DNA of 64,000 nucleotides, from contig JAKQPK010000055.1 in assembly GCA_029564765.1 (NCBI GenBank), positions 5,255 to 69,254 on the forward strand, given 5' to 3'. The stretch's first letter is position 1. Each line of letters starts with the position of its first letter. The position numbers and the translations under genes were made by a program. The notes under the pieces are model-generated. The model saw only the letters and a program-made list of their open reading frames with translations, was not told the DNA's origin and ran no database searches. Positions 14,599-36,332 of this stretch are shown here, one piece after another. The stretch comes from Candidatus Omnitrophota bacterium. Lineage in GTDB: Bacteria; Omnitrophota; Gorgyraeia; Zapsychrales; Aceulaceae.

Positions 14599-14677
14599 TG
14601 GTCGGAGCGGTGAGATTTGAACTCACGACCACTTGAACCCCATTCAAGTGCGCTAATCCAAGCTGCGCTACGCTCCG
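14599..14677 (-). tRNA. tRNA-Pro (anticodon GGG)
   Basis: Reverse complement folds as a canonical cloverleaf: CGGAGCG acceptor, GCGC D-stem, anticodon loop AUGGGGU, T-arm GTGAG-TTCAAAT-CTCAC, encoded ACCA. Confidence 0.85.
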
Positions 14678-14682
14678 AAAAT

Positions 14683-15684
14683 TTATTCAGGTTTTAACCT
14701 CCGGCACATCAAAGCTGTGACGGCGTTACGGGGATCCTTGCCTTTATAAAGAACGCGAAATACTTCTTCAGTGATCGGCATGGCAATCCGATAGCGACGA
14801 CTTAGTTGATATACGGCCTTGGCCGTTGGTACGCCTTCGGCAACGTTTTTCATGCCTGCTAATATATCTTTTATTTTTTTACCTTGGCCAAGTTTCTCGC
14901 CGACTTGGCGGTTGCGGCTATTAGGGCTAAAGCATGTTGTTGCGAGGTCTCCTAAGCCGCTTAGTCCAAAGAAAGTATGCTTGGTCGCGCCTAACACTTC
15001 TCCTAAGCGTGCCATTTCAGCCAATCCTCTTGAAAGGATCGCGGCTTTCGTGTTAGTCCCAAACCCGAGACCATCGCATACACCGCAGGCGATCGCGATA
15101 ATGTTCTTTATGCTTCCGCCAATCTCTACGCCTATCATATCAGAGTTTGTGTAGATGCGAAAGGCTGGTGAGTTAAAAGTTCGCTGAAGTTTCTTCGCCA
15201 GGTCCGCATTGCGTGAAGCAATGACAGCAGTAGATGGCGATCCTTTCGCGACCTCGATCGCGATCGTTGGACCCGAGAGCACGGCAAGAGGAACAGTTCC
15301 AAGCATTTCATGGATGAGCTGAGACATGCGGGTAAGTTTTTTGCTATCGATCCCCTTAACAACACTCAGGAAAGGTTTTTGAGCGTAATTACATTTCTTG
15401 ATCTCTGAAAGCACCTCGCGGGCATATTGTGAAGGCGTGGCAAAAACGATCAGATCACAATCATTGATCGCTTCATGCAATGTTTGCGTGATGTTTATTG
15501 ACCGAGGTATGGGGATGCCAGCAAGAAATTTTGGATTCTGGCGTGTTCTTTGCATCTGCTGAGCGTAGGGTGCGAAAGCGCTCCACAGCGTTACAGACAA
15601 ACCTTTTTTTGCGAGATGGATGGCGAGGGTCGTTCCCCATCCCCCGTCACCGATGACGGATATATTTTTAAATGATGTTCTCAT
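14683..15684 (-). CDS. gpsA: NAD(P)H-dependent glycerol-3-phosphate dehydrogenase
   Basis: 333 aa; N-terminal Rossmann motif ISVIGDGGWGTTLA and GpsA-like body. Confidence 0.9.
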   Translation of the reverse strand: MRTSFKNISVIGDGGWGTTLAIHLAKKGLSVTLWSAFAPYAQQMQRTRQNPKFLAGIPIPRSINITQTLHEAINDCDLIVFATPSQYAREVLSEIKKCNYAQKPFLSVVKGIDSKKLTRMSQLIHEMLGTVPLAVLSGPTIAIEVAKGSPSTAVIASRNADLAKKLQRTFNSPAFRIYTNSDMIGVEIGGSIKNIIAIACGVCDGLGFGTNTKAAILSRGLAEMARLGEVLGATKHTFFGLSGLGDLATTCFSPNSRNRQVGEKLGQGKKIKDILAGMKNVAEGVPTAKAVYQLSRRYRIAMPITEEVFRVLYKGKDPRNAVTALMCRRLKPE

Positions 15685-15781
15685 AATTATTAATATTTAT
15701 ATTATTATATTCGATGACTTTGACCTTTCAAGGAAAAAGATGGAACCTTTTAGATGAGGCTCAGGGTGCCAAGAAAGTTCG

Positions 15782-16486
15782 TTACCGCCAGATAAAGATC
15801 TCGCGGAAGACCTCGAACATGTAAGCCGCACCCCAGCGCAGAACCTGAAGCTTACGCTCCCCGCCTTCACGCCTTGGCTCATCGCCAGGGATCTCGCTGA
15901 TCTTCAGATTTCTTTTTGCAGCCCGAATGGATAACAGGGGTTCTATCCCGATACGTGTGCGAAAGAGTTGTTCTTCGAATGAGTAGCTTTTGTCTTTATG
16001 AAGGTCTAGGTCGTAAACAAGCTGTGTCCTGTAGGCTCTGAAAATGACCATGGCGTCCGTATAATGTGCATTGTGAAAAAAGTTGATAAAGGTCGTGAAC
16101 AGTTTGTTACCAAATGCAGTTATGGCGTCATCATCGTAGCTCTTTGCTCCTTGTAGATAGCGGGAAACAATGACCATGTCAAAGCCTTCCTTGAGCTTGT
16201 TGATGCACTCCGGGATAAGCTCTGGGATGCTATTTCCGTCAGGGCTGAACGTAAGAACAATGTCCCCTTTAATATAAGGCAGGGCTTCTATATACGCGTG
16301 ACGAATACCTTTTTTTTGTTGGACGAGCACTTCATAGCCTTGGCTTCTGGCATAGTCAGCAGTCCCATCCGTTGACTGGCCATCGACAATGAGGATCTGA
16401 TCATACCATTCTTTTTTGATGCGCGGCATGATGGTCTTCATACCGTCGATCTCGTTGAGAGTTGGGATCAGAAGTGTAATTTTCAT
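15782..16486 (-). CDS. GT2-family polyprenyl-phosphate glycosyltransferase (Dpm1/ArnC-like)
   Basis: 234 aa soluble GT-A: LLIPTLNEIDG ... VDGQSTDGT ... DxD-containing core. Confidence 0.8.
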   Translation of the reverse strand: MKITLLIPTLNEIDGMKTIMPRIKKEWYDQILIVDGQSTDGTADYARSQGYEVLVQQKKGIRHAYIEALPYIKGDIVLTFSPDGNSIPELIPECINKLKEGFDMVIVSRYLQGAKSYDDDAITAFGNKLFTTFINFFHNAHYTDAMVIFRAYRTQLVYDLDLHKDKSYSFEEQLFRTRIGIEPLLSIRAAKRNLKISEIPGDEPRREGGERKLQVLRWGAAYMFEVFREIFIWR

Positions 16487-16507
16487 GAAATTAATGTTGT
16501 CATTTTA

Positions 16508-16581
16508 TGGAGCGAGAGAAGGGAATCGAACCCTCGCTACCAGCTTGGAAGGCTGGAGTTCTACCACTGAACTACTCTCGC
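16508..16581 (-). tRNA. tRNA-Gly (anticodon TCC)
   Basis: RC = GCGAGAGTAGTTCAGTGGTAGAACTCCAGCCTTCCAAGCTGGTAGCGAGGGTTCGATTCCCTTCTCTCGCTCCA; canonical arms; CCA encoded. Confidence 0.9.
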
Positions 16582-16598
16582 GTCGCTTTGTTATACGA

Positions 16599-16685
16599 TG
16601 GTGGGCAGAGAAGGATTCGAACCTCCGTAGCGCGATGCGCAACAGATTTACAGTCTGTCCTCGTTGACCGCTTGAGTATCTGCCC
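16599..16685 (-). tRNA. tRNA-Tyr (anticodon GTA), long variable arm
   Basis: RC = GGGCAGA...CAGACTGTAAATCTG...TGCGCATCGCGCTAC...GGAGGTTCGAATCCTTCTCTGCCCACCA; perfect acceptor stem; CCA encoded. Confidence 0.9.
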
Positions 16686-16707
16686 TTTATACGTGTCAAT
16701 GGAGCTG

Positions 16708-16816
16708 AGGAAATTGGCGCATCGTCTTCTTCTATCTTGGCCTATCGGAAAAGACGATGACCCCCGACACACAGCTCGGAAAACCTTCAAATTTTTAAGC
16801 TGGCGAGAGGCCTCGA
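16708..16816. repeat. copy 1 of a perfect 109-bp tandem direct repeat; contains an orphan 3' fragment (18 nt) of tRNA-Thr
   Basis: Identical to 16848..16956 (AGGAAATTGGCGCATCGTC...GCTGGCGAGAGGCCTCGA); the copies are separated by a 31-bp AT-rich spacer; each unit carries a 9-bp-stem hairpin (CATCGTCTT...AAGACGATG). Confidence 0.9.
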
Positions 16817-16847
16817 CACCAATTTTTCCTTCTTTTATTTAGTTTAG

Positions 16848-16956
16848 AAGGAAATTGGCGCATCGTCTTCTTCTATCTTGGCCTATCGGAAAAGACGATG
16901 ACCCCCGACACACAGCTCGGAAAACCTTCAAATTTTTAAGCTGGCGAGAGGCCTCG
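16848..16956. repeat. copy 2 of the 109-bp tandem direct repeat; its last 18 nt form the genuine 3' end of tRNA-Thr
   Basis: 100% identical to copy 1 by direct comparison. Confidence 0.9.
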
Positions 16957-17011
16957 AACCCCCGACCGGCTGATTACAAGTCAGCTGCTCTACCAACTGA
17001 GCTACGCCAGC
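16939..17011 (-). tRNA. tRNA-Thr (anticodon TGT)
   Basis: RC = GCTGGCGTAGCTCAGTTGGTAGAGCAGCTGACTTGTAATCAGCCGGTCGGGGGTTCGAGGCCTCTCGCCAGC; T-stem has two G:U pairs; CCA not encoded. Confidence 0.8.
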
Positions 17012-17145: not shown

Positions 17146-18666
17146 ATGCCTGAACAAGTCCTTAAGTTTATCCAGCGTAGGGCCTATGCGATCACCTGCT
17201 CACTTCTTTTTTTAGCAGCTGTTATTGTCCGTATTTTGGCCGCCAGAGGCGATTTTGCGATGGATGAGATCTGGTCGCTACGCCTTGCCACAGAGAATGC
17301 TCAGCACATAACGGATATCATCTTTAAGATCAAGCATGACAACAATCATATATTGAATTCGGTCTGGATGTATGTCTTGGGGCCGCAGCAGATTTGGCAG
17401 CTGTATCGTATCCCGGCTGTGATCGGCGGAAGTCTTTGTGTTCTGTTTTCGTTTTTGATCGCTCGCCGACAAAGCCGTGCGCAAGGCATTGCAGCGTTGA
17501 TCCTTACAGGTTTTTGTTTTCCGCTTGTCTTTTATTCTTCGGAGGCACGCGGCTATGGACCCATGCTGGGCTTTGCCATGATCTCTTTTTATGCCATGAC
17601 ACGATTGATTGACGAGAGCAATCCTAGAGTGTTGCTGCGCCATGCCATTCTTTTTTGGAGTGCCGTTGTTCTTGGCCTCTTGTCACATTTAATTTTTATC
17701 TATATTTACATTGGGTTTGTCACCTGGTCATTGCAAGAATTCTTTACTCAAAAAGATAAATCGAGGATTGATCAAGCTAAAAGTTTTATTTATGTTCACA
17801 GTGTCCCGATAATCGCCGCAATCTTTCTTTATCACTTTTTTGTAAAGAGCATAACAGTTGGAGGTGGCCCAAACGATAGCTTTCTTTTTATCTTTTTTCA
17901 GATCTTAATAGTGACATTTGGTTTCCGTGGCCTTGAGCAGCACGCTTTTGTTCTTTGTTCCGCTGTTTTTGTTTCCTTCTTGATCTTGCTTTGGTTCATT
18001 CGGAAAGCGTATGGCAATGTTTGGATATTCTTTACGATGGGCATCCTCATCGCCCCAGCCCTTGTTCTCATCCTTTTCCCTTTTCCGCACATGAGCATGC
18101 GGTATTTCATTCCGAGCCTTTTGTTTTTTATGTATACCTTATCTTATTTTATTGATTTTTTGTGGGAAAGATCCTTAATGGGTAAAATAATAGCTTCTGC
18201 CATCCTTTTATTGTTTCTTTTTGGCCAGACAACGTATTTACCTAACTTTTTAAAATATGGGCGTGGACGTTTTGAGGAAGCCATTCGCTATATCTCCACT
18301 CTATCAAATGGAAAACCAATCAAAATCTCAAGCGATTCGGATTTTCGTACTGATTTAGTTCTTGATTTTTATAAAGAACGAATAAAAAATTCAGAAAACC
18401 TTGATCATGTAGCTTTCTTCTCCATTAAGGACGAAAAAGATCTGCCTGATATTTTTTTGATCCATTTTTTCAGATGCGCGCCGTGGGATACGGGGTGTCT
18501 GCCGCACGATGTGAATGAAGACACAACGATCACGCTTTCATTTAATGGCAGACACTGTCAGTTTTCTTATTTGAAGTCCTTTCCATGGCATGGCATATTG
18601 TCTGGATGTTCTTGGATCATATTAAAACGCGAAGGGGCTGTTTTCTTTAGTGAACCTATCTCATAA
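17146..18666 (+). CDS. GT-C-fold membrane glycosyltransferase (ArnT/PMT-like, GT39/GT83-like)
   Basis: 506 aa with about 11-13 TM helices; conserved D-E dipeptide in the first extracytoplasmic loop (GDFAMDEIWSLR), as in polyprenyl-phosphate-sugar-dependent GT-C enzymes; AGGA RBS. Confidence 0.65.
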   Translation: MPEQVLKFIQRRAYAITCSLLFLAAVIVRILAARGDFAMDEIWSLRLATENAQHITDIIFKIKHDNNHILNSVWMYVLGPQQIWQLYRIPAVIGGSLCVLFSFLIARRQSRAQGIAALILTGFCFPLVFYSSEARGYGPMLGFAMISFYAMTRLIDESNPRVLLRHAILFWSAVVLGLLSHLIFIYIYIGFVTWSLQEFFTQKDKSRIDQAKSFIYVHSVPIIAAIFLYHFFVKSITVGGGPNDSFLFIFFQILIVTFGFRGLEQHAFVLCSAVFVSFLILLWFIRKAYGNVWIFFTMGILIAPALVLILFPFPHMSMRYFIPSLLFFMYTLSYFIDFLWERSLMGKIIASAILLLFLFGQTTYLPNFLKYGRGRFEEAIRYISTLSNGKPIKISSDSDFRTDLVLDFYKERIKNSENLDHVAFFSIKDEKDLPDIFLIHFFRCAPWDTGCLPHDVNEDTTITLSFNGRHCQFSYLKSFPWHGILSGCSWIILKREGAVFFSEPIS

Positions 18667-27292: not shown

Positions 27293-27832
27293 TTAATTTC
27301 CTTGGAGGCCACGTTTTTCTTTTTTTGCTTCCAAGTAGGCGGCGCGAAGTTCGTTTTTGTATTTCGTGTTAGGCGGTGTGATGGTAAGATTCGAAAAGCC
27401 TTGCCGAAGGATTTCCGCGTTCACAAAGGTCCCGTCTTTTAAGAAGATATAGCCAAGGATGTATCCTTGTCGATCGCGATAAAGGGCATCGAATTCCAAA
27501 AGGATGTCTTGGCCGGTTAGCATTTCGCGCAATGTATCGTAGACGATCTCTTCAAAAGAAATGATAGGGTCTTCTTTTTCGATAATAATATTGTATTCAT
27601 TGCGAGGGACTTCTTTTGTCCTTGGACGCTCAACAGGGACCAAACCGATCATGCGGATCTTCCGCCCGTCAACAAGGCGGACCGTCGCAGAATCTATAAG
27701 CGATTCGATGCGGGCCTGCTCTTTGCTGGCAGAGCCTGTTATAAGGGTTCGGTTCTGGGCGTAGACATAAAGATTCGCCGTTGCAAGGACGAGATGAAGC
27801 GTGATTAAGGTAAGGAGTGTTTTTTTATACAT
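27293..27832 (-). CDS. secreted staphylococcal-nuclease-like (thermonuclease/SNase) protein
   Basis: Signal peptide; VRLVDGRKIRMIGLVPVE and YRDRQGYILGYIFLKDG...NAEILRQGFS match SNase catalytic-core patterns. Confidence 0.55.
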   Translation of the reverse strand: MYKKTLLTLITLHLVLATANLYVYAQNRTLITGSASKEQARIESLIDSATVRLVDGRKIRMIGLVPVERPRTKEVPRNEYNIIIEKEDPIISFEEIVYDTLREMLTGQDILLEFDALYRDRQGYILGYIFLKDGTFVNAEILRQGFSNLTITPPNTKYKNELRAAYLEAKKEKRGLQGN

Positions 27833-27849: not shown

Positions 27850-28416
27850 CTAGCGAATAGCTTTTTCGAAGTCTTCGATCTGCTGCAAGATTTTTTGCTT
27901 GTTTTCTCGGGTTTTCTTTAAGCGTTCTTCAGATTTATTGACCAAATCATCTAAGCGTTGTTGCTGGCTTTGCATATTTGTTTTTGCCTTTTCGAATTCA
28001 TCATCAAAGCTTTTTTGTAGATCTTCTAGTTTCTTCTTTTCTTGATCGAGGTTTTCTTGAGCGTGCTTGACCTTGCGCTTTGCCCGTTCAATACGCTCTT
28101 GAAGCTTGTTTTTTTCTTGGTCTATTCTTCCATCTTTATCCTTGATAAAGTCATTTAATCTTTCTTCTGCTTTTTTTACGTCTTCCCTGGCTTTTTCTTC
28201 TTTGAGCCTTGCTTCGCTGAGTTTTTCGATATGCTTATCAAGTTCTTTTTTTTGATCAGATGTTAGCTTTTTTTGTTGCAGGCGCCACAGGGATAGATCT
28301 TCGTTGATGTTCTTGTCATAAAATGTTTTTTTAGCATCTTGGGCGCTCGCGCGGGAAGCGCACAAGGCCAAAATGATCACAGCGGAGAAAAGAAAAGATA
28401 TGCGTGCAGAGTTCAT
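27850..28416 (-). CDS. secreted K/E/Q-rich coiled-coil protein
   Basis: 188 aa; signal peptide, then a continuous heptad-like charged sequence (…EEKAREDVKKAEERL…QERIERAKRKVKHAQENLDQEKKKLEDLQ…). Confidence 0.5.
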   Translation of the reverse strand: MNSARISFLFSAVIILALCASRASAQDAKKTFYDKNINEDLSLWRLQQKKLTSDQKKELDKHIEKLSEARLKEEKAREDVKKAEERLNDFIKDKDGRIDQEKNKLQERIERAKRKVKHAQENLDQEKKKLEDLQKSFDDEFEKAKTNMQSQQQRLDDLVNKSEERLKKTRENKQKILQQIEDFEKAIR

Positions 28417-28529: not shown

Positions 28530-31500
28530 CTAATTCTTGCAGAACACCCCGGAATCAGCCGAAACTCCCGGGTCGATATTGCTGATCAAACGTAAAACCA
28601 TGTTACAGTTGGCTCCCGCCGGAACACTCCAAACATACCCCAGCGGAGCATTCGGCGCCGGAGTTCCTGCGCTTGAGTCAGTAGTGATGGTATCTGGAAA
28701 AGTCGCGCCGCCATCTGATGAAAGTTTAATGGTCATATACGGCCCTACCCCGCTGACCGTCCATGTGATCTCATAAAAGCCAGAGATCGTGTCTCCAGCT
28801 GAAGGCGCTGTCACCGCTATGCTCGCACCACCGCCACTCGCGATCGTAAAGTTGCTGTCAGATGTGTCATACACGCTCGCGTCAGACGCATCGGAGATTC
28901 GCACGCGCACCATCGAACTCGGATCATTGGCAACAGTCCACGTATAACTGCCGCTTGAGGCGGAGGTTGACGCGATGATCGTATTCGGATAGGAAGCCCC
29001 ACTGTTAGTTGAGTATTCGATCTTCACATTCGAAACGGAACCACTCGTCGTCCAGGTGATGTTTTTTGAGGATGAGACATTCCAGGACTCGCCGCCATTA
29101 GGGCTCGTCAATGTCACGCTATTGGTGGCTGCCGTAACACCGCCCGCATCCAGGATAGTGCCAGCCCCGGGCTGTGTTGGATTGCGCTCCGCAGCCGCGG
29201 TCCTGATCTGATCGACCACGCTCGCGCTCAGCCCACTTGCCTGGGCGATCTGGGGCGACAGGGTCGCATAAATAAGATTGCCGCGCAGATTCTGGATCTT
29301 CATCTGGCCATCTTCCATCACAAAAATCATGGTCGTATTGCCGCTCGTCTTTTGCTGCAGACCCGTTTTTCGGGGAGTCTGGTCTTTATCCCATTTTGTT
29401 TCCGCGATGTAGGCATTGCCGCGTTTTTCAATACGATTGATATAGATCGTGAGGCGGATATCGGTGAACATGTCAAAATCGAACCGCACACCTTCTTCGA
29501 GGAAGCCCTTGTTCCCTAAATAAGACCTTGAAATAAGCTGAGCGAACGCTGACGGATCTTTTTTCTCATAAGTTTCAGCCAGTTGCTTGATGCTCTGTGC
29601 GACCATTTGTTGCACATTAAGATCGCGATAAATGATATTCAGATTAGGGAATAAAGGAATGGTCAGCTCATCGGCGAGCGTACTGCGGATCTTGAGCACA
29701 GGATTATACGTTTTATCCGGGATCATGGTGATCGTGCTCATGATATCCGCCCTCAAAGGCAATTCGGCCCACGTCCGGCCGCCATCCTCGGAAAAAAGAA
29801 TGCGGTCCAGCCTATCAATGCTATTCAATCGGGCCGTGATCTCGATCTCTCCCTGCTTGAGATCATCCGGCAGCAAAATAAGTTCCCCGAACATCATAGG
29901 GATCGCCCGGCTGTTGATCCGGGCATTAAAGACCTGATACGTCTGAGATGTGAAATTTCGCTCTTCGCGCAAGCGCTGTGCCTCGGCACTCTTGCGGGCG
30001 GCAGCCTCTTCTTGCTCGCGCTGGGAATCATCTTCTGCTTTTTTAAGAGCCCACTCTTTTTCCTGCTTTTCAATATCCTTTTTTGCCTTTTCAATAGCCA
30101 GATCAACTTCCTGTTCTAGCTCAGTCCAGTCCTTAATAACTTTCTCGGTCTTTTCGGTCTTAACCCACCCGACGTACACACTCAAGTTGCTGCGCAGTGT
30201 CTGGGTCTTGAATGTCTCAAGATTTTCCAGCTTTTCCTTGTACCAACCATGCTGTTCAATGGACTTGAATCGTTTCCTCGCGTCATCCAGATTCTTCTGT
30301 GCCCGAACGATAGAAGCATCAAATTCTTTCTGAACAATCGCATAGCGCTCTTCATAAAGAGCAATGCGTGCCGGAATAGTTTTCAGCCCGTTGATCATGG
30401 TCTTGGCCTTATCATTGAACCCGCCATGGTATTTAATAGACTTATTGATTCCTGAAAAAAGCTTTTCCATTTGGGCAACAAGAGCGGAAGACTCAGCCCA
30501 GGTTTCTTTCAATTGCGCCAGGTATTGCACACCTTTGCTCTTTTCCGGCTCAACGCTCATAAAGCCAGCCGCGCCGTCACCTCGGAACAATTGCAACACA
30601 TGCTCTGCTTCCTTTTGCATCGTTCTCTCGAGCACTGAACTGAGCACCGGAGAATCCGAAATTCCGGTCATAAGCCTGTTCAATGTCAGGGCCATGCGGT
30701 CAACGGAATCATAAAAGTCCATCTCAGTGATGAGCCTGTTAATAAGTTGCAGCGATTTGTCACTCTGCGCCAAGCCATCCGCTAACCCCATATCTTTCAA
30801 GAAAATTCCAGTATCTTCAGCGGAAGATATTATTGGAATATTCGCAATGATGCGCCGATAACCCCCGGCAAGAACGCCGTCGCCCTGTACCTTGCCCAAT
30901 ATTTTCAAAATAGCCGGAGAGGCAACATCTTTCAACATGAGCTCATATCTATACCCAGGCTTTTTCTCTATGACCTGCAGACTTTTGGGTACAGTGGCCT
31001 CAAATTTTCTGATCAGGGCCTGTACGGAAGTTTCATAATTTTCATACGCCTTCTTCGCCAATGATATTATTTCAGGATAAAGCTCTTTGTTCTTCTGCAG
31101 GTCATCCTTGATCTGCTTCAGAGACTCCATTGATCTGATGGCGTCACCGGGATTGTGGAACATGAAAAACTGCTCTTTGTGCTGCGTCCAAGCATCCACC
31201 TCTTGGGTACGATCAACAATACCGCCCGCGATGCTCTGATATGCCGTCATATCCTCCTTAAAAGCGGCCTCCATCCGAATGATATCCGTTGCTATTTCCT
31301 CCGTCAATTTATCCAGCGTGGCGCTCATGGTCATCACACGATCCTTGACCTCGAACAGAACGACCTGCTCTTCTTTGGCAAGGATATCAGCATCCTGCCT
31401 GTGCCCATTGCCAAAAACATAACTAATATTGGCGTAAGGAAAGGTCATAGCTGACCAAGCCTGATTAATACGGTGGTATTCAGCATAAAGTGCCTCACGC

Positions 31501-32915
31501 TCGGCCGGCGAAAGGTAAGCGCGATCCTTAGCCCTGACAGCATCATACTGAGGGCGATAAATGGCTGCTGCTTGAGCGGACACTTTTTCTCCCTCTTTGA
31601 TCAGATCCTGGATTTTATTCCAGGAATCCTCTAGAGCTTTCTTGCGCACTTCCTGATAACGCTCTATGCCCGCCTCAACCTCCTTGACATCATATCCGTC
31701 AGTGCCAGCCTCTTTAAATGGATCGAACGCATCACGCAAGGCATTGAGAACGCCCTGACGATCAATAGCACAGCTTTCATACTTGAACACCGGGCTTGCC
31801 CGCGCATATAACGCATCGTTACGATTAGCGATCTCTTGCGCCTCGTCGACGACCTCTTTGTAGTCCTCTTTCTTATATTCATACACTTTCGATTTAAAAC
31901 TATCGATAGCGGCAAGAACCGGCGAAGCATCCTTACCGGCAGTGTCGATCGCGCCCTGAACGCCACTGGCAGCTGCCTTGGCATCACTGTCGAGCGCTTC
32001 GAGCTTGGCGCGGACCTGTTGTTCGATCTCGATCCTTTTCTGGATCTCGGACTTCATCTTTTCAAGCGCGGCAATAATGGCCGCCTTCATATTATCGCCT
32101 TCATTGTCCTTACCCTTTAGATACCAGCCGCTGTACGCCAGCTGCTCATCCCATTCCTTTTGCACATAGCTTGGGATATCCGTCGCCATGATCCAGTCCT
32201 TAAACGCCTTGGGATTTGATCGTGGATTGCGTCCATCGAGGATCACATTCATTTTGGATTCCAGCGCCGTATCGAACGCATAGCCCACCACATAATTCCC
32301 GAGGGCCTCGACCGCAGCCTGCGCCAGGCGATAATAACCCCAACCGGGAATGAAATATTCCATGACCTTATCGCCGATCTGCTTGCCCAGTTCGCGGCAG
32401 CCTTCCTCAGCGCCCTTGGTGCTCCATGTCGAATACACATTCCATGCAATTTCGGCAGAAGCGATGCCGGCCTTCACGCCGTTCATTTTCGTATCAAGCT
32501 TGGATTTGATATCAATATCTGCCGCTGACCAGACTGCGCTCACGGCCTTGCCATCAACGATCGCCTGATGCATCATGGAAGGCACGGCGGCCTTGAAAAG
32601 ATCGGCCCGCGCTCTTGCCTGGATATAATTGAGCATCTTGTCCTTAACAGCGTCCTTGGCTCGGGACGCGGTCTCTTCCCAAACACGCTCTTTACCCTGC
32701 TTGAGGATATACTCCAGCTTCTGCTCAGTGGTCATGCTGTTCATGGCCGTGATATCTTTAACGAAGTTCGTATAGGAGGTGATCAGCGCTTTGGCAGCCT
32801 TGCCTGTGGCCGTCTCTTCAAACGGAGCATCTTTCGCCCAAAGCGGCTGGCCCGAACAAAGGGACAAGATCGTTACGCATGTGGTCAAGAACAGGATTTT
32901 TTTCATATGTCTCAC
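28530..32915 (-). CDS. giant (1,461 aa) secreted surface protein with coiled-coil-rich body and two C-terminal S/T-rich Ig-like repeats
   Basis: Signal peptide MRHMKKILFLTTCVTILSLCSGQPLWA. Long helical/coiled-coil segments. C-terminal tandem repeats of about 95 aa (SPNGGESWNV…ITWTTSG…VKIEYSTNSGASY…GSYTWTV…VRVRI, then APSAGDTISGFYEITWTVSG…IKLSSDGGATFPDTI…GYVWSVPAG…MVLRLI). No recognisable export-class motif. Confidence 0.7.
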   Translation of the reverse strand: MRHMKKILFLTTCVTILSLCSGQPLWAKDAPFEETATGKAAKALITSYTNFVKDITAMNSMTTEQKLEYILKQGKERVWEETASRAKDAVKDKMLNYIQARARADLFKAAVPSMMHQAIVDGKAVSAVWSAADIDIKSKLDTKMNGVKAGIASAEIAWNVYSTWSTKGAEEGCRELGKQIGDKVMEYFIPGWGYYRLAQAAVEALGNYVVGYAFDTALESKMNVILDGRNPRSNPKAFKDWIMATDIPSYVQKEWDEQLAYSGWYLKGKDNEGDNMKAAIIAALEKMKSEIQKRIEIEQQVRAKLEALDSDAKAAASGVQGAIDTAGKDASPVLAAIDSFKSKVYEYKKEDYKEVVDEAQEIANRNDALYARASPVFKYESCAIDRQGVLNALRDAFDPFKEAGTDGYDVKEVEAGIERYQEVRKKALEDSWNKIQDLIKEGEKVSAQAAAIYRPQYDAVRAKDRAYLSPAEREALYAEYHRINQAWSAMTFPYANISYVFGNGHRQDADILAKEEQVVLFEVKDRVMTMSATLDKLTEEIATDIIRMEAAFKEDMTAYQSIAGGIVDRTQEVDAWTQHKEQFFMFHNPGDAIRSMESLKQIKDDLQKNKELYPEIISLAKKAYENYETSVQALIRKFEATVPKSLQVIEKKPGYRYELMLKDVASPAILKILGKVQGDGVLAGGYRRIIANIPIISSAEDTGIFLKDMGLADGLAQSDKSLQLINRLITEMDFYDSVDRMALTLNRLMTGISDSPVLSSVLERTMQKEAEHVLQLFRGDGAAGFMSVEPEKSKGVQYLAQLKETWAESSALVAQMEKLFSGINKSIKYHGGFNDKAKTMINGLKTIPARIALYEERYAIVQKEFDASIVRAQKNLDDARKRFKSIEQHGWYKEKLENLETFKTQTLRSNLSVYVGWVKTEKTEKVIKDWTELEQEVDLAIEKAKKDIEKQEKEWALKKAEDDSQREQEEAAARKSAEAQRLREERNFTSQTYQVFNARINSRAIPMMFGELILLPDDLKQGEIEITARLNSIDRLDRILFSEDGGRTWAELPLRADIMSTITMIPDKTYNPVLKIRSTLADELTIPLFPNLNIIYRDLNVQQMVAQSIKQLAETYEKKDPSAFAQLISRSYLGNKGFLEEGVRFDFDMFTDIRLTIYINRIEKRGNAYIAETKWDKDQTPRKTGLQQKTSGNTTMIFVMEDGQMKIQNLRGNLIYATLSPQIAQASGLSASVVDQIRTAAAERNPTQPGAGTILDAGGVTAATNSVTLTSPNGGESWNVSSSKNITWTTSGSVSNVKIEYSTNSGASYPNTIIASTSASSGSYTWTVANDPSSMVRVRISDASDASVYDTSDSNFTIASGGGASIAVTAPSAGDTISGFYEITWTVSGVGPYMTIKLSSDGGATFPDTITTDSSAGTPAPNAPLGYVWSVPAGANCNMVLRLISNIDPGVSADSGVFCKN

Positions 32916-32930
32916 ATAAAGATTAATTGA

Positions 32931-33392
32931 TTAAAAAGGATTATTGCCGCTAATCTGATATAAAAGCCAATTGCCATCATCCTGGTGTTTGAATACGACT
33001 TCCGCTTCGCCTTTGGAAAGGACGGCTTCTGTGGCGCCCTGGGGCTGTGCACGCTTCTCCCAATTAAACCGCGCCGACAACGTCTTTTTTCCGGCATCGA
33101 AAAACGCCTGGTTAATGAAGTAGTTAAGCTCAAGCACCTTCCCGGCATTGACATTACGGTCGATCTGATCGATAAGCTTATCGCGTAACGGCGCATCCTG
33201 GGCGATGTTCATCAGAAACATATCTTTGAAATAATTCTGGTAGGCCAATACTATCCCGGCGATCAACTTGTTGGTCAGAACAAATGCCTCATCCGCCTGC
33301 GGGGCTTCAGCCTGCGGCCGAACTGCATCCTTAGCATGGCCGTATCCGGCAAGAAAAAAAAGGCTCAGTATCAAAACGAATATTTTCTTCAT
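32931..33392 (-). CDS. small secreted/periplasmic protein (possible NTF2-like fold)
   Basis: 153 aa; signal peptide; the segment LELNYFINQAFFDAGKKTLSARFNWEKR resembles LTIYINRIEKRGNAYIAETKWDKD inside the giant protein. Confidence 0.45.
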   Translation of the reverse strand: MKKIFVLILSLFFLAGYGHAKDAVRPQAEAPQADEAFVLTNKLIAGIVLAYQNYFKDMFLMNIAQDAPLRDKLIDQIDRNVNAGKVLELNYFINQAFFDAGKKTLSARFNWEKRAQPQGATEAVLSKGEAEVVFKHQDDGNWLLYQISGNNPF

Positions 33393-33409
33393 GGCTCTCT
33401 TTTCTTTAG

Positions 33410-35155
33410 TTAAAAGTTGGATACGAATTTTGCGATAACGCGCTGTTCATTATACGTTTGATTTCCGTCCTCATGGACATAGCGATTGCGTTCAGCGCGT
33501 ACAATAAAGCGCGTCGCATGTTTTTTATTGATCAGATAATCAAATTCCGAGAACGTGCGGTTATTAAAATAATCCGTCCCAGGCTTTGACCTGTTGCTAT
33601 CGGCAAGAGTATTGCCCAGGCGAATAGTGAAACGCTGTGACGCCTCATAGGTCGCGTTTAACCCAAGATTGAAATTAATGTCCTTCTTCTGTGAGGTCTT
33701 GGTAGAGCGCAGATCCAGGGCTGGATCCAACGAACAGTAAAACCTCCGGCCGAAAAGTTTATAGTCTTTGGCAAAATTCAAGCCGACCCGATGAAAATAA
33801 TCCGAAGCCGTTCTATTGGCTTTATCTGTAAAGGCACGATATTCGTAATTAGCCCCAACGCTGGCACTGCCGATCGTATCATTAACAGAAAAACCGCCAG
33901 TACGTGTAACACCGCTGGCCGTGTTGCCCGGATCATCGGATGATCTGATCTGATAATTGACGTACGGCCGAAAAGAAAAGCTGGTCCGGGACGCGAATGG
34001 ACGCGATGCCCAGACAACATACTTTTCATCATTAATAGTGCGCTTTGTAAGCGAACTCCCCCTTAAATGGTCCCAGTAATAATTCTCGGTAAGGCTCAGC
34101 GTGTTGCTGGCATTGAGAGCGATGTCGAATGTCACCTGATGTTGGACCATATCCGGGGAGGCAGAGCCAACATCTGTGTAAAATTTCGGCTGAACGTAAT
34201 TATAAAGGTAGCGGGTCTGGATCTTGCCCATATTAAGTGTCGGTTGCAAACGCACAGCATAAGCTTCTTCAGAGTTCTTATCAGCCTCAAGATCAGGTGC
34301 ATGTTCACTGCGGGCAATCTCATAATTCATGGAGAGATACTTTTGCAAGGAAAGCGCGCCATCAATACTTGTCACATGATTACGGATCTGCTTGGAGTTG
34401 GAGGTGCGTTCAAGTGTCGAAGAATCATCCTGGGTAGTCACATGCTGCAGACCAACCCTAAAATTTGAAAAGACAGAGGAATCACGAAAAAAATTTTGAT
34501 CCATCTTGAATCCAAAGATATTCCGTTGAAACTTCTCTGTCGCAACGTCCGCTCCGTAAGCGCGCGCGATAACACCTTTATACCTCTGATCCTCCGACGG
34601 ATTGGTCTCAAAGCTTAGCCCTTCGAGAGAAGTCCCAAGCGTGAACTGACTGAACTCCGCATAAGAATCAGCAAATTCCACAATATTTTTTGGATTATAA
34701 ATTTTCGTAGATATTTGTTTCATCCGGACATCCCCACGCTGCTCGATGCGGTTATTGTCGGTTTTGCGAAGAAATATCTGCCCTTCAAAATTATAGTCTT
34801 TGGGAAGCTTTGCGCCAATATTAAGTCGCAGTTCAGTAAGATAATCCGTTCCCCTGCGAAGAAATGACTTGGATGTATTGCCCGAAATATTGTTCCAGGA
34901 TATTTCCTGAGCAATGTTCCCGGTGATGCGTCCGGAACGATCATTCAGCTCTCGCCCAGATGTAAAATCAAAAAGATCGTGGAAACGTTGTTTGAGGGAA
35001 TAAGAAGGATTGACCACGGCCGATGAAGCGGCTGCACCACTTAAATAAAAAACCTCAGCCGCGTGCGCTGAAGACGAAATAAATGAGCTTATAATAATAA
35101 ACCCAAAAAAAATCCTTAGGTGTGACCTGTTAAAAAGAATCATGTTAAATTCCAC
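33410..35155 (-). CDS. outer-membrane beta-barrel protein (unknown family)
   Basis: 581 aa; signal peptide; rich in Tyr/Asn/Ser/Thr/Gly with alternating hydrophobic pattern; C-terminus ...RVIAKFVSNF ends in Phe (OMP beta-signal). Confidence 0.55.
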   Translation of the reverse strand: MEFNMILFNRSHLRIFFGFIIISSFISSSAHAAEVFYLSGAAASSAVVNPSYSLKQRFHDLFDFTSGRELNDRSGRITGNIAQEISWNNISGNTSKSFLRRGTDYLTELRLNIGAKLPKDYNFEGQIFLRKTDNNRIEQRGDVRMKQISTKIYNPKNIVEFADSYAEFSQFTLGTSLEGLSFETNPSEDQRYKGVIARAYGADVATEKFQRNIFGFKMDQNFFRDSSVFSNFRVGLQHVTTQDDSSTLERTSNSKQIRNHVTSIDGALSLQKYLSMNYEIARSEHAPDLEADKNSEEAYAVRLQPTLNMGKIQTRYLYNYVQPKFYTDVGSASPDMVQHQVTFDIALNASNTLSLTENYYWDHLRGSSLTKRTINDEKYVVWASRPFASRTSFSFRPYVNYQIRSSDDPGNTASGVTRTGGFSVNDTIGSASVGANYEYRAFTDKANRTASDYFHRVGLNFAKDYKLFGRRFYCSLDPALDLRSTKTSQKKDINFNLGLNATYEASQRFTIRLGNTLADSNRSKPGTDYFNNRTFSEFDYLINKKHATRFIVRAERNRYVHEDGNQTYNEQRVIAKFVSNF

Positions 35156-35354
35156 AAATAATATATTTTTTATTATTATAAATGGTCATCTTGTTTCGTA
35201 AACTAAATTAAAATATATTTCCCTTTTCGTAGCAGGTTATAAGGCATCAACAAGGAACCTCATGGGGCTTCATTCCTTCGAAGCCGAATGCCCTGCTCCG
35301 CCGAAGCGAAGCCCGCCATGGCTTCACAGAGGCGAGCAAAGAGCGATGCATAAA

Positions 35355-35431
35355 TGGTGGCGGCGAGTGGATTTAAACCACTGACCAATCGGGTATGAAC
35401 CGAGTGCTCTATCGGGCTGAGCTACGCCGCC
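35355..35431 (-). tRNA. tRNA with CAU anticodon (Met, or Ile2 if lysidinylated); atypical D- and T-loops
   Basis: RC = GGCGGCGTAGCTCAGCCCGATAGAGCACTCGGTTCATACCCGATTGGTCAGTGGTTTAAATCCACTCGCCGCCACCA. Good acceptor, anticodon and T stems; anticodon loop UUCAUAC. D-loop lacks G18G19 and T-loop is TTTAAAT (no C56). Confidence 0.7.
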
Positions 35432-35487: not shown

Positions 35488-35790
35488 TTACAAATGATAA
35501 AAAATGATATAGAGAAACAAGATCACGACAGCCGCTGAAATAATGTAAAAATCATTGAAGTAAAAGAAGTCTTTGATGCGTTCGTTGGAAGTGTATTCGA
35601 ATTGGGTGTTTTCCGCCGCGACAGTTCCCCCGTTTTTGATACCCATCAGGTCATTGCGCTTGAAGCGAATGAATTGTCCTGCGATGCGATACGATTGGAG
35701 CTTGCCTTGTTCGACAAGCTCCATAATTTTCTTTTCAGATACTTTTAGGATCTGCGCGGCTTCGCGCACAGAAATAAATTGGTCAGACAT
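35488..35790 (-). CDS. excisionase-type HTH (HTH_17-like) DNA-binding protein with C-terminal transmembrane anchor
   Basis: N-terminal ISVREAAQILKVSEKKIMELVEQGKLQSYRIAGQFIRFKRNDL fits the excisionase/MerR-like HTH; C-terminal hydrophobic helix FYIISAAVVILFLYIIFY. Confidence 0.6.
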   Translation of the reverse strand: MSDQFISVREAAQILKVSEKKIMELVEQGKLQSYRIAGQFIRFKRNDLMGIKNGGTVAAENTQFEYTSNERIKDFFYFNDFYIISAAVVILFLYIIFYHL

Positions 35791-35810: not shown

Positions 35811-36332
35811 TTACCCTTTAGCTTTTTCAAGCGTTATCCAGTGATCGATCTTTGCCCGGTCAAATTTCCAGGCATCATCGGTTTTAATCCCGGGAAGCGT
35901 ACCTGCGTTGGCCATTTCCACGACCGATGAAATATCAAGCTCAAGATATCGAGCTGTTTCTTCCAGGGAAAGCTGTTCGTTGAGCATGCGGCATTGGCCT
36001 TCAAAAATAGCGCCTTCTACAATGTTCAGCTTGGGCGTTGAAATATTACCCATGAGCTCCGCGGAAGGCATTAATACTAACATCTTTGAAGCAAGGACAT
36101 CACCTTGGATCTTTCCTGCTACGATAACGTTCTCACCGGTGATCCTGGCCTCAACTCGAGCGGTTTCTCCAACAGTCAGCGTTCCTTTTGTTTCCAGTGA
36201 CCCAACAAAAAGTCCATTGATGCGCAGATTAACAGGGTCACTAAAAGAAAGGGTTCCTTTCATTTCAGCGTTTATCTCAATGAGTTTTTGTTCTGCTTCG
36301 TTCTTGCCTCGTCGGTCGCGTAAAGCCATCAT
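35811..36332 (-). CDS. bactofilin fused to a C-terminal excisionase-type HTH domain
   Basis: Bactofilin beta-helical repeat pattern (LTVGETARVEARITGENVIVAGKIQGDVLASKMLVLMPSAELMGNISTPKLNIVEGAIFEG), followed by LSLEETARYLELDISSVVEMANAGTLPGIKTDDAWKFDRAKIDHWI (HTH_17-like). Confidence 0.7.
   Translation of the reverse strand: MMALRDRRGKNEAEQKLIEINAEMKGTLSFSDPVNLRINGLFVGSLETKGTLTVGETARVEARITGENVIVAGKIQGDVLASKMLVLMPSAELMGNISTPKLNIVEGAIFEGQCRMLNEQLSLEETARYLELDISSVVEMANAGTLPGIKTDDAWKFDRAKIDHWITLEKAKG

What the first reader, a model, noticed from the sequence alone, without database searches (positions are those of the whole stretch)
28530..35155. Compact operon: outer-membrane beta-barrel, small periplasmic protein and 1,461-aa secreted giant protein, a possible dedicated surface-display or export module
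Seen in sequence: the three minus-strand genes at 33410-35155, 32931-33392 and 28530-32915 are separated by only 17 and 15 bp, and all begin with signal peptides. The 581-aa product has a beta-barrel-like composition and ends in ...KFVSNF, an outer-membrane beta-signal with terminal Phe. The giant protein has no TPS domain (no NPNG motifs), no RTX or type-1 C-terminal signal, no LPXTG, no autotransporter barrel, and no motif I could assign to a known export class. Inference: the barrel may export or anchor the giant protein, possibly an adhesin. That would be a secretion/anchoring arrangement not matching the classical families. The secreted coiled-coil protein and SNase-like nuclease immediately downstream may belong to the same surface or host-interaction locus.
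Basis: partly seen in the sequence, partly recalled or inferred. Interest (0 to 1): 0.75.

Follow-up and report, generated by a model that had tools for sequence, protein, structure and literature searches.

The report
26-strand barrel with NTF2-domain partners
Three adjacent genes, found almost only in Omnitrophota bacteria, encode an unusually wide plug-less outer-membrane barrel and two secreted partners that share one small NTF2-type domain; together they probably form an undescribed complex that holds large, swappable proteins at the cell envelope, though the function is untested.

Summary
Three tightly packed minus-strand genes (581, 153 and 1,461 aa) each start with a signal-peptide-like N-terminus. 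The window is a housekeeping region of a Candidatus Omnitrophota chromosome.

- **Barrel.** It models confidently (pLDDT 87) as a 26-strand barrel with short loops and no plug or POTRA domain. The closest solved structures are MtrB, then the FimD/PapC ushers. It is not a porin, FadL, TonB-dependent transporter or LptD.
- **Small protein.** It has an NTF2-like fold and is a lipoprotein in about half of its homologues. It is a paralogue of a domain inside the large protein.
- **Large protein.** Its only family-wide conserved part is a core of Ig-like sandwich, NTF2-like domain, two helices and a QPGAG motif. The ~950-aa helical N-terminus and the C-terminal domains are swapped or absent in relatives.
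- **Synteny.** All 31 informative loci have an NTF2-bearing partner right after the barrel, and 26 have the full triad. At least 10 loci have two or three large partners per barrel. One distant relative fuses the barrel to the small protein.
- **Neighbours.** The downstream coiled-coil and SNase genes are not part of the module.

My best reading is an MtrCAB/LptDE-like plugged barrel that anchors or exports modular proteins. The docking geometry and the function are inferred, not shown. I found no description of it in the literature.

The parts
33410..35155 (-). Outer-membrane barrel, 581 aa. It has a signal peptide, then a conserved ~40-aa N-terminal segment with a short helix (residues 54-61; R57 and D60 invariant). 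A plug-less 26-strand beta-barrel spans residues 75-580 and ends in ...KFVSNF.
32931..33392 (-). Small secreted NTF2-like protein, 153 aa. Here it has a signal-peptidase-I type signal. About half of its homologues have a lipobox cysteine. It ends in the conserved motif G-[DN]-[SN]-P-F.
   Evidence: ORF. 6 of 22 homologues hit Pfam DUF4440 (best 7e-6), and others hit SnoaL_2/3. hhalign to the large protein's NTF2 domain gives probability 98.1%, E 1e-13. N-termini and lipoboxes are shown. It is present directly after the barrel in 28 of 31 informative loci, and is fused to the barrel C-terminus in P0197.
28530..32915 (-). Large secreted partner, 1461 aa (whole gene).
   Evidence: ORF. 16 homologues, all Omnitrophota where named. 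The only hydrophobic segment is the signal peptide.
29961..32834 (-). Large protein residues ~28-985: an orphan, mostly alpha-helical N-terminal region that acts as a variable payload. It is absent in the short forms and replaced by an unrelated helical region in other orthologues.
   Evidence: Composition. No Pfam or PDB relative. Short forms of 436-459 aa lack it. hhalign of type A vs type B N-terminal regions gives probability 3%, and B vs C 94.7%.
29628..29933 (-). Large protein residues ~995-1096: an Ig-like beta-sandwich containing a BNR-like SEDGGRTW motif. This is the first half of the conserved core.
   Evidence: AF2 model of residues 960-1290. Weak Big_7 and Mo-co_dimer (Ig-like) hits in a distant orthologue. 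45-55% identity across the family.
29280..29615 (-). Large protein residues ~1101-1212: an NTF2-like domain that is a paralogue of the 153-aa protein. This is the second half of the conserved core.
29163..29255 (-). Large protein residues ~1221-1251: two short helices followed by the nearly invariant motif RNPxQPGAG. This is the most conserved stretch of the protein, and a disordered linker follows it.
   Evidence: Invariant columns. AF2 helices at 1221-1226 and 1231-1244, then pLDDT below 50.
28533..29129 (-). Large protein residues ~1263-1461: two tandem Kre9/KNH-type Ig-like domains that act as a variable C-terminal payload. Most orthologues carry an HmuY-like beta domain here instead.
   Evidence: Weak Big_7 and Kre9_KNH hits. 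The two copies are 30% identical. The HmuY-like alternative is shown.
35175..35202 (-). Sigma-70-like promoter match (TTTACG-16-TATAAT) about 20 bp upstream of the barrel start. This is a consensus match only.
   Evidence: No terminator-like site lies between the three genes.

Best explanation
The three genes encode one outer-membrane complex of a kind not yet described.

- The 581-aa protein is a very wide, plug-less 26-strand barrel.
- The 153-aa NTF2-like protein, which is often a lipoprotein, docks at or inside the barrel from the periplasmic side and acts as its plug or adaptor.
- The large protein docks through its conserved core (Ig-like sandwich, paralogous NTF2 domain, two helices and the QPGAG motif).
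- The barrel thereby anchors, and perhaps first translocates, a modular client. The client's helical N-terminal region and C-terminal Ig-like or HmuY-like domains are exchangeable payloads facing the outside.
- One barrel can serve two or three such clients.

Shown: the folds of the barrel, the small protein and the core; the paralogy between the small protein and the core's NTF2 domain; the co-conservation; the modularity; and one barrel-NTF2 fusion.

Inferred: the physical docking, which side of the membrane each part lies on, and the biological role.
For: 1. Co-conservation. In 31 informative loci from different Omnitrophota species, the barrel is always followed directly by an NTF2-bearing partner. 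26 loci have barrel + small + core protein, 3 have barrel + core protein, and 2 have barrel + small protein. The flanking genes are unrelated between loci.

2. The pairing holds in remote barrel relatives. P0090 is followed by a small NTF2 lipoprotein (E 2e-21). P0096 and P0102 are followed by proteins with the Ig + NTF2 core (E 5e-18 and 4e-23).

3. A natural fusion exists. P0197 is a barrel ending in ...GDLALKW, then a Pro/Ala linker, then a small-type NTF2 domain (E 7e-18), with no signal peptide between them. The C-terminus of an even-stranded OMP lies in the periplasm (established knowledge), which places the NTF2 partner on that side.

4. The barrel has 26 strands, loops of 15 residues or fewer, and no plug in cis. 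Its best structural matches are MtrB, which sheathes MtrA, and the usher pores. By standard barrel geometry such a barrel would be roughly 45-50 Å across between C-alpha atoms (my estimate). From general knowledge of outer-membrane barrels, it should need a protein occupant to stay sealed.

5. Lumen-facing residues are polar or charged and significantly more conserved than lipid-facing ones (0.72 vs 0.55, p 1e-9).

6. The client is modular. Only the ~300-aa core is conserved, at 45-55% identity. Short forms consist of signal peptide + core + C-terminal domain. There are at least two unrelated N-terminal region types and two C-terminal domain types. At least 10 loci carry 2-3 clients per barrel. 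This matches the pattern of a shared targeting or docking domain with variable cargo.

7. All three proteins have Sec-type signals and none has a further membrane helix.
Against: - No complex was modelled. Only monomer AF2 was available, so no interface has been seen.
- The strand count and the absence of a plug rest on a single model (pLDDT 87).
- Higher conservation of lumen residues is also expected for a specific solute channel.
- The fusion is a single case from a 3.4-kb metagenomic contig of 70% GC.
- Three loci lack the small protein and two lack the large one, so neither partner is strictly required next to the barrel.
- Nothing shows on which side of the membrane the payload domains sit. 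A ~950-aa helical region could equally be periplasmic.
- The HmuY-like C-terminal domain of most orthologues fits ligand capture as well as it fits surface display.
- There are no expression or localisation data for any member.
Confidence: 0.5

Rival explanations
1. It is a true secretion pore. The barrel is a translocon, comparable in function to an usher or TpsB, that releases the large proteins into the medium. The conserved core is the secretion signal, and the small NTF2 protein is a removable plug or periplasmic chaperone.
For: Ushers are the next-best structural matches after MtrB. There are several clients per barrel, all sharing one conserved core. The barrel is wide and has no plug of its own.
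Against: The core lies internally or near the C-terminus and is a folded two-domain unit, unlike known N-terminal TPS or C-terminal secretion signals. No energy source or periplasmic chaperone of a known type is encoded in the module. The barrel-NTF2 fusion suggests permanent association rather than transient plugging.
Confidence: 0.17
2. It is a nutrient-uptake channel with a ligand-capturing partner, analogous to HmuY-HmuR or SusCD but independent of TonB. The barrel is the conduit, and the partner's HmuY-like or Ig-like C-terminal domain and NTF2 pockets bind a substrate such as a tetrapyrrole or another hydrophobic molecule.
For: The C-terminal domain of most orthologues is HmuY-like: the profile hits PDB 8b6a at 7.9e-6 and 6eu8 at 3.4e-5, and 6 of 16 members hit Pfam HmuY. 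NTF2-like folds commonly bind small hydrophobic ligands (one search hit list; general knowledge). The polar lumen is conserved.
Against: In the window itself the HmuY-like domain is replaced by Ig-like domains. This model does not explain the ~950-aa helical regions or the multiple paralogous clients. The barrel has no TonB box or plug domain. The conservation of HmuY's haem-ligand residues was not tested.
Confidence: 0.15
3. It is an LptDE-like lipid or glycolipid inserter. The 26-strand barrel plus the NTF2-like lipoprotein plug would export a hydrophobic envelope component, with the large protein as an accessory.
For: It shares the 26-strand count with LptD, and it has a small partner that is often a lipoprotein. 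NTF2-like folds can hold lipids (general knowledge).
Confidence: 0.06
4. It is an envelope tether or scaffold. The large protein's helical region stays in the periplasm and links the outer membrane, through the barrel, to the cell wall or inner membrane, comparable to the role of SlpA/OmpM.
Against: No SLH, OmpA-like, LysM or other wall-binding domain is found in any ortholog. The helical region is not conserved and is absent in short forms, which is unexpected for a structural tether.
Confidence: 0.08
5. The three genes are merely neighbours with unrelated functions.
For: There is no direct interaction evidence.
Against: The order and spacing are conserved in 26 of 31 loci despite unrelated flanking genes. 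The pairing persists in remote relatives, and one fusion exists.
Confidence: 0.02

Closest known systems
MtrCAB porin-cytochrome complex (Shewanella; PDB 6r2q)
   Different: There is no sequence relationship and no MtrB_PioB Pfam hit. The partners have no CxxCH haem motifs and are NTF2/Ig proteins rather than multihaem cytochromes. The two partners here are paralogous to each other.
LptD-LptE lipopolysaccharide translocon
   Same: Both have a 26-strand barrel with a small partner that is often a lipoprotein and could plug the lumen.
   Different: LptD is not among the top structural hits. The barrel has no beta-jellyroll N-domain and no LptD or LptE family match. The partner fold is NTF2-like rather than LptE-like. 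A large protein client is also present.
Chaperone-usher pathway (FimD/PapC ushers)
   Same: Ushers are large protein-conducting barrels (24 strands) and are the second-best structural matches. Both have a small periplasmic partner and several related clients encoded next to the barrel.
   Different: The barrel has no usher Pfam match and no plug, N-terminal or C-terminal usher domains. The small protein is NTF2-like rather than a PapD-type Ig chaperone, and the clients are not pilins.
Two-partner secretion (TpsB/TpsA) and Slam/type 11 secretion
   Same: Both have a dedicated barrel encoded next to one or more large or surface clients that share a recognition domain.
   Different: TpsB is a 16-strand Omp85 with POTRA domains, and TpsA has an N-terminal TPS domain. 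Slam is a 14-strand DUF560 barrel with TPR repeats. None of these features is present here.
HmuY-HmuR haem acquisition (Bacteroidota)
   Same: Most orthologues of the large protein end in an HmuY-like domain, and they are encoded beside an outer-membrane barrel.
   Different: HmuR is a 22-strand TonB-dependent transporter with a plug, and HmuY is a free lipoprotein. The window's protein lacks the HmuY-like domain altogether.

Membership tests
MtrB/PioB porin-cytochrome systems | The barrel belongs to the MtrB_PioB sequence family. | tested here: not met
   No Pfam hit at E<=1. The profile search against PDB sequences finds nothing. The resemblance is structural only.
MtrB/PioB porin-cytochrome systems | The partner is a multihaem c-type cytochrome with several CxxCH motifs. 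| tested here: not met
   There are zero CxxCH motifs in the small and large proteins.
LptD/LptE | LptD has an N-terminal OstA beta-jellyroll plus an LptD-family barrel. | tested here: not met
   No OstA or LptD Pfam/NCBIfam hit. The model has only ~40 residues before the barrel. LptD is absent from the top structural hits.
LptD/LptE | The partner is an LptE-family lipoprotein. | tested here: not met
   The small protein is NTF2-like (DUF4440/SnoaL). The window's copy has no lipobox cysteine.
Two-partner secretion (type 5b) | TpsB is a 16-strand Omp85 barrel with POTRA domains. | tested here: not met
   The barrel has 26 strands and no POTRA domain, and no ShlB or POTRA Pfam hit.
Two-partner secretion (type 5b) | TpsA has an N-terminal TPS domain (Haemagg_act, NPNG motifs). 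| tested here: not met
   No Pfam hit, and the NPNG count is 0.
Chaperone-usher | The usher is a 24-strand barrel with an internal plug and N- and C-terminal domains, paired with a PapD-like chaperone. | tested here: not met
   No Usher or PapD Pfam hits. The model has no plug or extra domains. The small protein is NTF2-like.
TonB-dependent transporter / SusCD / HmuYR | A 22-strand barrel with an N-terminal plug domain and a TonB box. | tested here: not met
   No Plug or TonB_dep_Rec Pfam hit. The barrel has 26 strands and no plug.
Generic porins / FadL | A 14-18-strand barrel of the Porin or FadL (Toluene_X) families. | tested here: not met
   The barrel has 26 strands. Porins align over only 220-290 residues, against 439 for MtrB. 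Only remote relatives show weak Porin_4 or OMP_b-brl matches.
Slam / type 11 secretion | A DUF560 14-strand barrel with N-terminal TPR repeats. | tested here: not met
   No DUF560 or TPR hit in the window's barrel, and it has 26 strands.
NTF2-like superfamily (small protein and core domain of the large protein) | An alpha+beta cone fold of three helices packed on a curved antiparallel sheet. | tested here: met
Type 1 (RTX), sortase (LPXTG) and autotransporter substrates | GGxGxD repeats with a C-terminal signal; an LPXTG motif; or a C-terminal 12-strand barrel. | tested here: not met
   All regex counts are 0. No corresponding Pfam hits. The C-terminus consists of Ig-like domains.

The most novel reading that the evidence does not exclude
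The module is a previously unrecognised, self-contained outer-membrane protein display or secretion system, outside the numbered secretion types. Its conduit or anchor would be a 26-strand barrel. Its partner-recognition unit would be a pair of paralogous NTF2-like domains, one in a small plug or adaptor protein and one in each client. Omnitrophota would use it to present large, rapidly diversifying proteins, possibly for contact with host or prey cells.
Probability: 0.3. Interest if true: 0.85.

Novelty: new variant of a known kind. Interest (0 to 1): 0.62.

Why it matters
Very large single-chain outer-membrane barrels are rare. The characterised 26-strand examples, LptD and MtrB, each work by enclosing a partner protein. 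A third, unrelated family that pairs such a barrel with NTF2-like partners would extend this design principle.

It would also give a first functional handle on the cell surface of Omnitrophota. This is an uncultivated phylum of ultra-small, probably host-dependent bacteria whose large secreted proteins are mostly unannotated (PMC10066038).

The conserved Ig + NTF2 + QPGAG core could serve as a sequence tag for finding the clients of the system in metagenomes.

The hypothesis is directly testable by complex prediction and by heterologous expression.

Tried and rejected
- **Sequence searches of the three proteins.** Pfam, NCBIfam and PDB sequence searches gave nothing for the barrel and only weak Ig hits for the large protein.
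- **LptD/LptE-like reading.** Rejected as membership: the barrel has no jellyroll domain, and LptD is not among the structural hits.
- **Porin-cytochrome reading.** Rejected: no haem-binding motifs.
- **Coiled-coil and SNase genes as part of the locus.** Rejected: they are not syntenic elsewhere.
- **A conserved fourth ~1,080-aa gene.** In L005 it is CarB, a housekeeping gene. In L010, L011, L019 and L039 it is a second large partner cut off by the locus end.
- **tRNA-linked island.** A tRNA-Met lies just upstream of the barrel, but tRNA adjacency does not recur in 26 other loci. GC content is unremarkable, and the surrounding genes are housekeeping.
- **Regulatory RNA.** No Rfam match in the region apart from that tRNA.
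- **AFDB fold search.** The library was unavailable.
- **Literature.** Searches for Omnitrophota with barrels, for NTF2-like proteins with outer-membrane barrels, and for 26-stranded barrels found no description of this module.


Full report
**Observation.** One search confirms three minus-strand ORFs at 33410-35155 (581 aa), 32931-33392 (153 aa) and 28530-32915 (1461 aa), separated by 17 and 15 bp. Each N-terminus has a basic n-region, a hydrophobic h-region and an AxA-type cleavage site. I read this from the sequence, since no SignalP tool was available. The 581-aa protein ends in KFVSNF. The large protein has no membrane helix other than its signal peptide. It has no NPNG, GGxGxD, LPxTG or CxxCH motif. 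A sigma-70-like site lies just upstream of the first gene, and no terminator-like site separates the genes. The layout fits one operon, but this is not proven.

**Source and context.** The barrel is 100% identical to a hypothetical protein from a Candidatus Omnitrophota MAG. The rest of the window encodes housekeeping functions: ValRS, LeuA, aspartate kinase, FtsH, TilS, FolP, GatA/B, SurA, Mfd, SecDF, TrpE, HisD, AlaRS and RecA. GC content is uniform. A tRNA-Met sits between the upstream HTH gene and the barrel. tRNA adjacency does not recur in 26 related loci. I therefore see no sign of a mobile island.

**The barrel.** It has no Pfam, NCBIfam or PDB sequence match, either alone or as a 38-sequence profile.
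- *Model.* AF2 on that alignment gives a confident model (pLDDT 87.3) with 26 beta-strands spanning residues 75-580. All connecting loops are 15 residues or shorter. There is no plug, POTRA or other domain. Before the barrel lies only a conserved ~40-residue segment with a short helix.
- *Size.* By standard barrel geometry (my estimate), 26 strands give a C-alpha diameter of about 45-50 Å. Such a pore should need a protein occupant to stay sealed. The two characterised 26-strand barrels, LptD with LptE and MtrB with MtrA, both have one (general knowledge).
- *Lumen conservation.* Residues inferred to face the lumen are polar or charged and more conserved than those facing lipid (0.72 vs 0.55, Mann-Whitney p 1e-9). 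This fits a specific occupant but does not prove one.

**The small protein.** Among 22 homologues collected from related loci, six hit Pfam DUF4440 (best 7e-6) and others hit SnoaL families. It therefore belongs to the NTF2-like superfamily. About half of the homologues have a lipobox cysteine. The window's copy has a signal-peptidase-I site instead. Most end in G-[DN]-[SN]-P-F.

**The large protein.** BLAST against orthologues from the loci shows that only residues ~993-1270 are conserved across the family, at 45-55% identity. In locus L002 the third gene is just 436 aa: a signal peptide, this core and a C-terminal beta domain.
- *Paralogy.* hhalign shows that the small protein is a paralogue of this NTF2 domain (probability 98.1%, E 1e-13).
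- *Most conserved stretch.* The helices and the following RNPxQPGAG motif are the most invariant part of the protein.
- *N-terminal region.* The ~950-aa helical N-terminus has no relative in Pfam or the PDB in any ortholog. It comes in at least two mutually unrelated types (A vs B probability 3%; B vs C 94.7%).
- *C-terminal region.* In the window it is two Kre9/KNH-type Ig-like domains. In most orthologues it is an HmuY-like domain instead. The profile hits the solved HmuY-family structures 8b6a (7.9e-6) and 6eu8 (3.4e-5), and 6 of 16 members hit Pfam HmuY.
- *Summary.* The protein is a conserved docking-type core flanked by exchangeable payloads.

**Comparative genomics.** A scan of one genome per species returned 37 loci. 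Nearly all are labelled Omnitrophota, and a few binned MAGs carry other labels.
- *Locus architecture.* HMM scans of all loci show 31 with enough downstream sequence to judge. Of these, 26 have barrel, small protein and core protein in that order with gaps of about -80 to +100 bp. Three have a core protein directly after the barrel, and two have the barrel and small protein only. Flanking genes differ completely between loci.
- *Neighbours excluded.* The coiled-coil and SNase genes downstream in the window are not part of the module.
- *Several clients per barrel.* At least ten loci encode two or three core-bearing large proteins around a single barrel, sometimes with different N-terminal types.
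- *Wider superfamily.* An exhaustive profile search found 325 barrel relatives at E<=1e-3. Remote ones show only weak generic porin matches, and some carry N-terminal AMIN, TPR or CARDB domains.
- *Remote pairings.* Four remote barrels were followed by a small NTF2 lipoprotein (E 2e-21), by Ig + NTF2 core proteins (E 5e-18 and 4e-23, one with Pfam Cds6_C NTF2-like) or by an NTF2-like + CARDB protein.
- *A natural fusion.* P0197, from a 70% GC contig, fuses the barrel to a small-type NTF2 domain. The barrel ends in a beta-signal-like ...GDLALKW and is joined through a Pro/Ala linker, with no intervening signal peptide. This argues for physical association. Because the C-terminus of an even-stranded barrel is periplasmic (established knowledge), it also places the NTF2 partner on the periplasmic side.

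**Interpretation.** The best-supported reading is a dedicated outer-membrane complex. A plug-less 26-strand barrel is occupied or capped by NTF2-like domains: the small protein from the periplasmic side, and the paralogous domain in the client's core. The barrel anchors, or first translocates, one or more modular clients. This resembles MtrCAB and LptDE in principle, but it fails every membership test for those families. It also fails the tests for two-partner secretion, chaperone-usher, Slam and TonB-dependent systems (see the membership table).

What is shown:
- the folds of the barrel, the small protein and the core;
- the paralogy between the small protein and the core's NTF2 domain;
- the co-conservation and modularity of the module;
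- one barrel-NTF2 fusion.

What is inferred:
- the docking geometry;
- which parts face outward;
- the biological role.

Four rivals remain open. They are a releasing secretion pore, a TonB-independent uptake channel with a ligand-capturing partner (favoured by the HmuY-like domains), an LptDE-like lipid inserter, and an envelope tether.

**Novelty.** Full-text searches found no description of this module. The two main Omnitrophota genome papers discuss giant proteins and pili but not this barrel or its partners. I rate it a new variant of a known kind, namely barrel-plus-occupant complexes. I give about a 30% chance that it is a new type of display or secretion system.

Noticed in passing
window 27293-27832 (-) and 27850-28416 (-): A signal-peptide-bearing SNase/thermonuclease homologue (Pfam SNase 7.8e-11; NCBIfam NucI 3.9e-13) and a secreted 188-aa coiled-coil protein lie directly downstream of the triad. 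They are not syntenic with the triad in other genomes. A secreted nuclease in a putatively host-dependent bacterium may be of interest in its own right.
   Followed up: partly
window 35811-36332 (-) and 35488-35790 (-): An unusual fusion of a bactofilin domain (2.8e-24) with a C-terminal excisionase-type HTH_17 domain (it also matches the MADS1 antiphage HTH, 1.2e-9). Next to it lies a 100-aa HTH_17 protein with a C-terminal hydrophobic tail. Both are just upstream of the tRNA-Met and the triad.
   Followed up: no
window 35355-35431 (-): A tRNA-Met (CAT) with its own promoter-like site (35471-35443) lies between the HTH gene and the barrel gene, followed by a GC-rich hairpin-like stretch. tRNA adjacency is not conserved in related loci.
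   Followed up: yes
window 17146-18666 (+): A 506-aa ORF on the opposite strand to most genes, with no Pfam match at E<=1e-5. It lies next to a cluster of four tRNA genes (14599-17011).
   Followed up: no
L046 495-2681 (protein P0197): A natural fusion of a remote barrel relative with a small-type NTF2 domain, on a 70% GC metagenomic contig. The GC content suggests that the barrel-NTF2 pairing exists outside Omnitrophota. It is a single instance on a short contig.
   Followed up: partly
L030 and L034 (same MAG, nW3bin14): One genome carries two barrel loci. One is a full triad flanked by two extra large partners. The other is a short-form system (barrel + 459-aa core protein, no small protein) preceded by a 2425-aa ORF that I did not characterise.
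   Followed up: no
C-termini of large-protein orthologues (e.g. L003 ~16350-16756, L012, L031; L002 12276-13586): Most orthologues end in an HmuY-like beta domain with the terminal motif F-[KR]-Y-A-V-Q-T-D-G-[ST]-x-N. Whether the haem-ligand histidines of HmuY are conserved was not examined.
   Followed up: partly
window 30001-32000: GC skew drops to -0.17 inside the large gene, while most of the window is slightly positive. This is probably a codon or amino-acid composition effect of the Ala/Glu/Lys-rich helical region rather than a replication feature.
   Followed up: no
L026, L027, L029: The large-protein gene is split into two ORFs, or interrupted by runs of N, in these MAG contigs. These are probably assembly or frameshift artefacts rather than real gene fission.
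   Followed up: no
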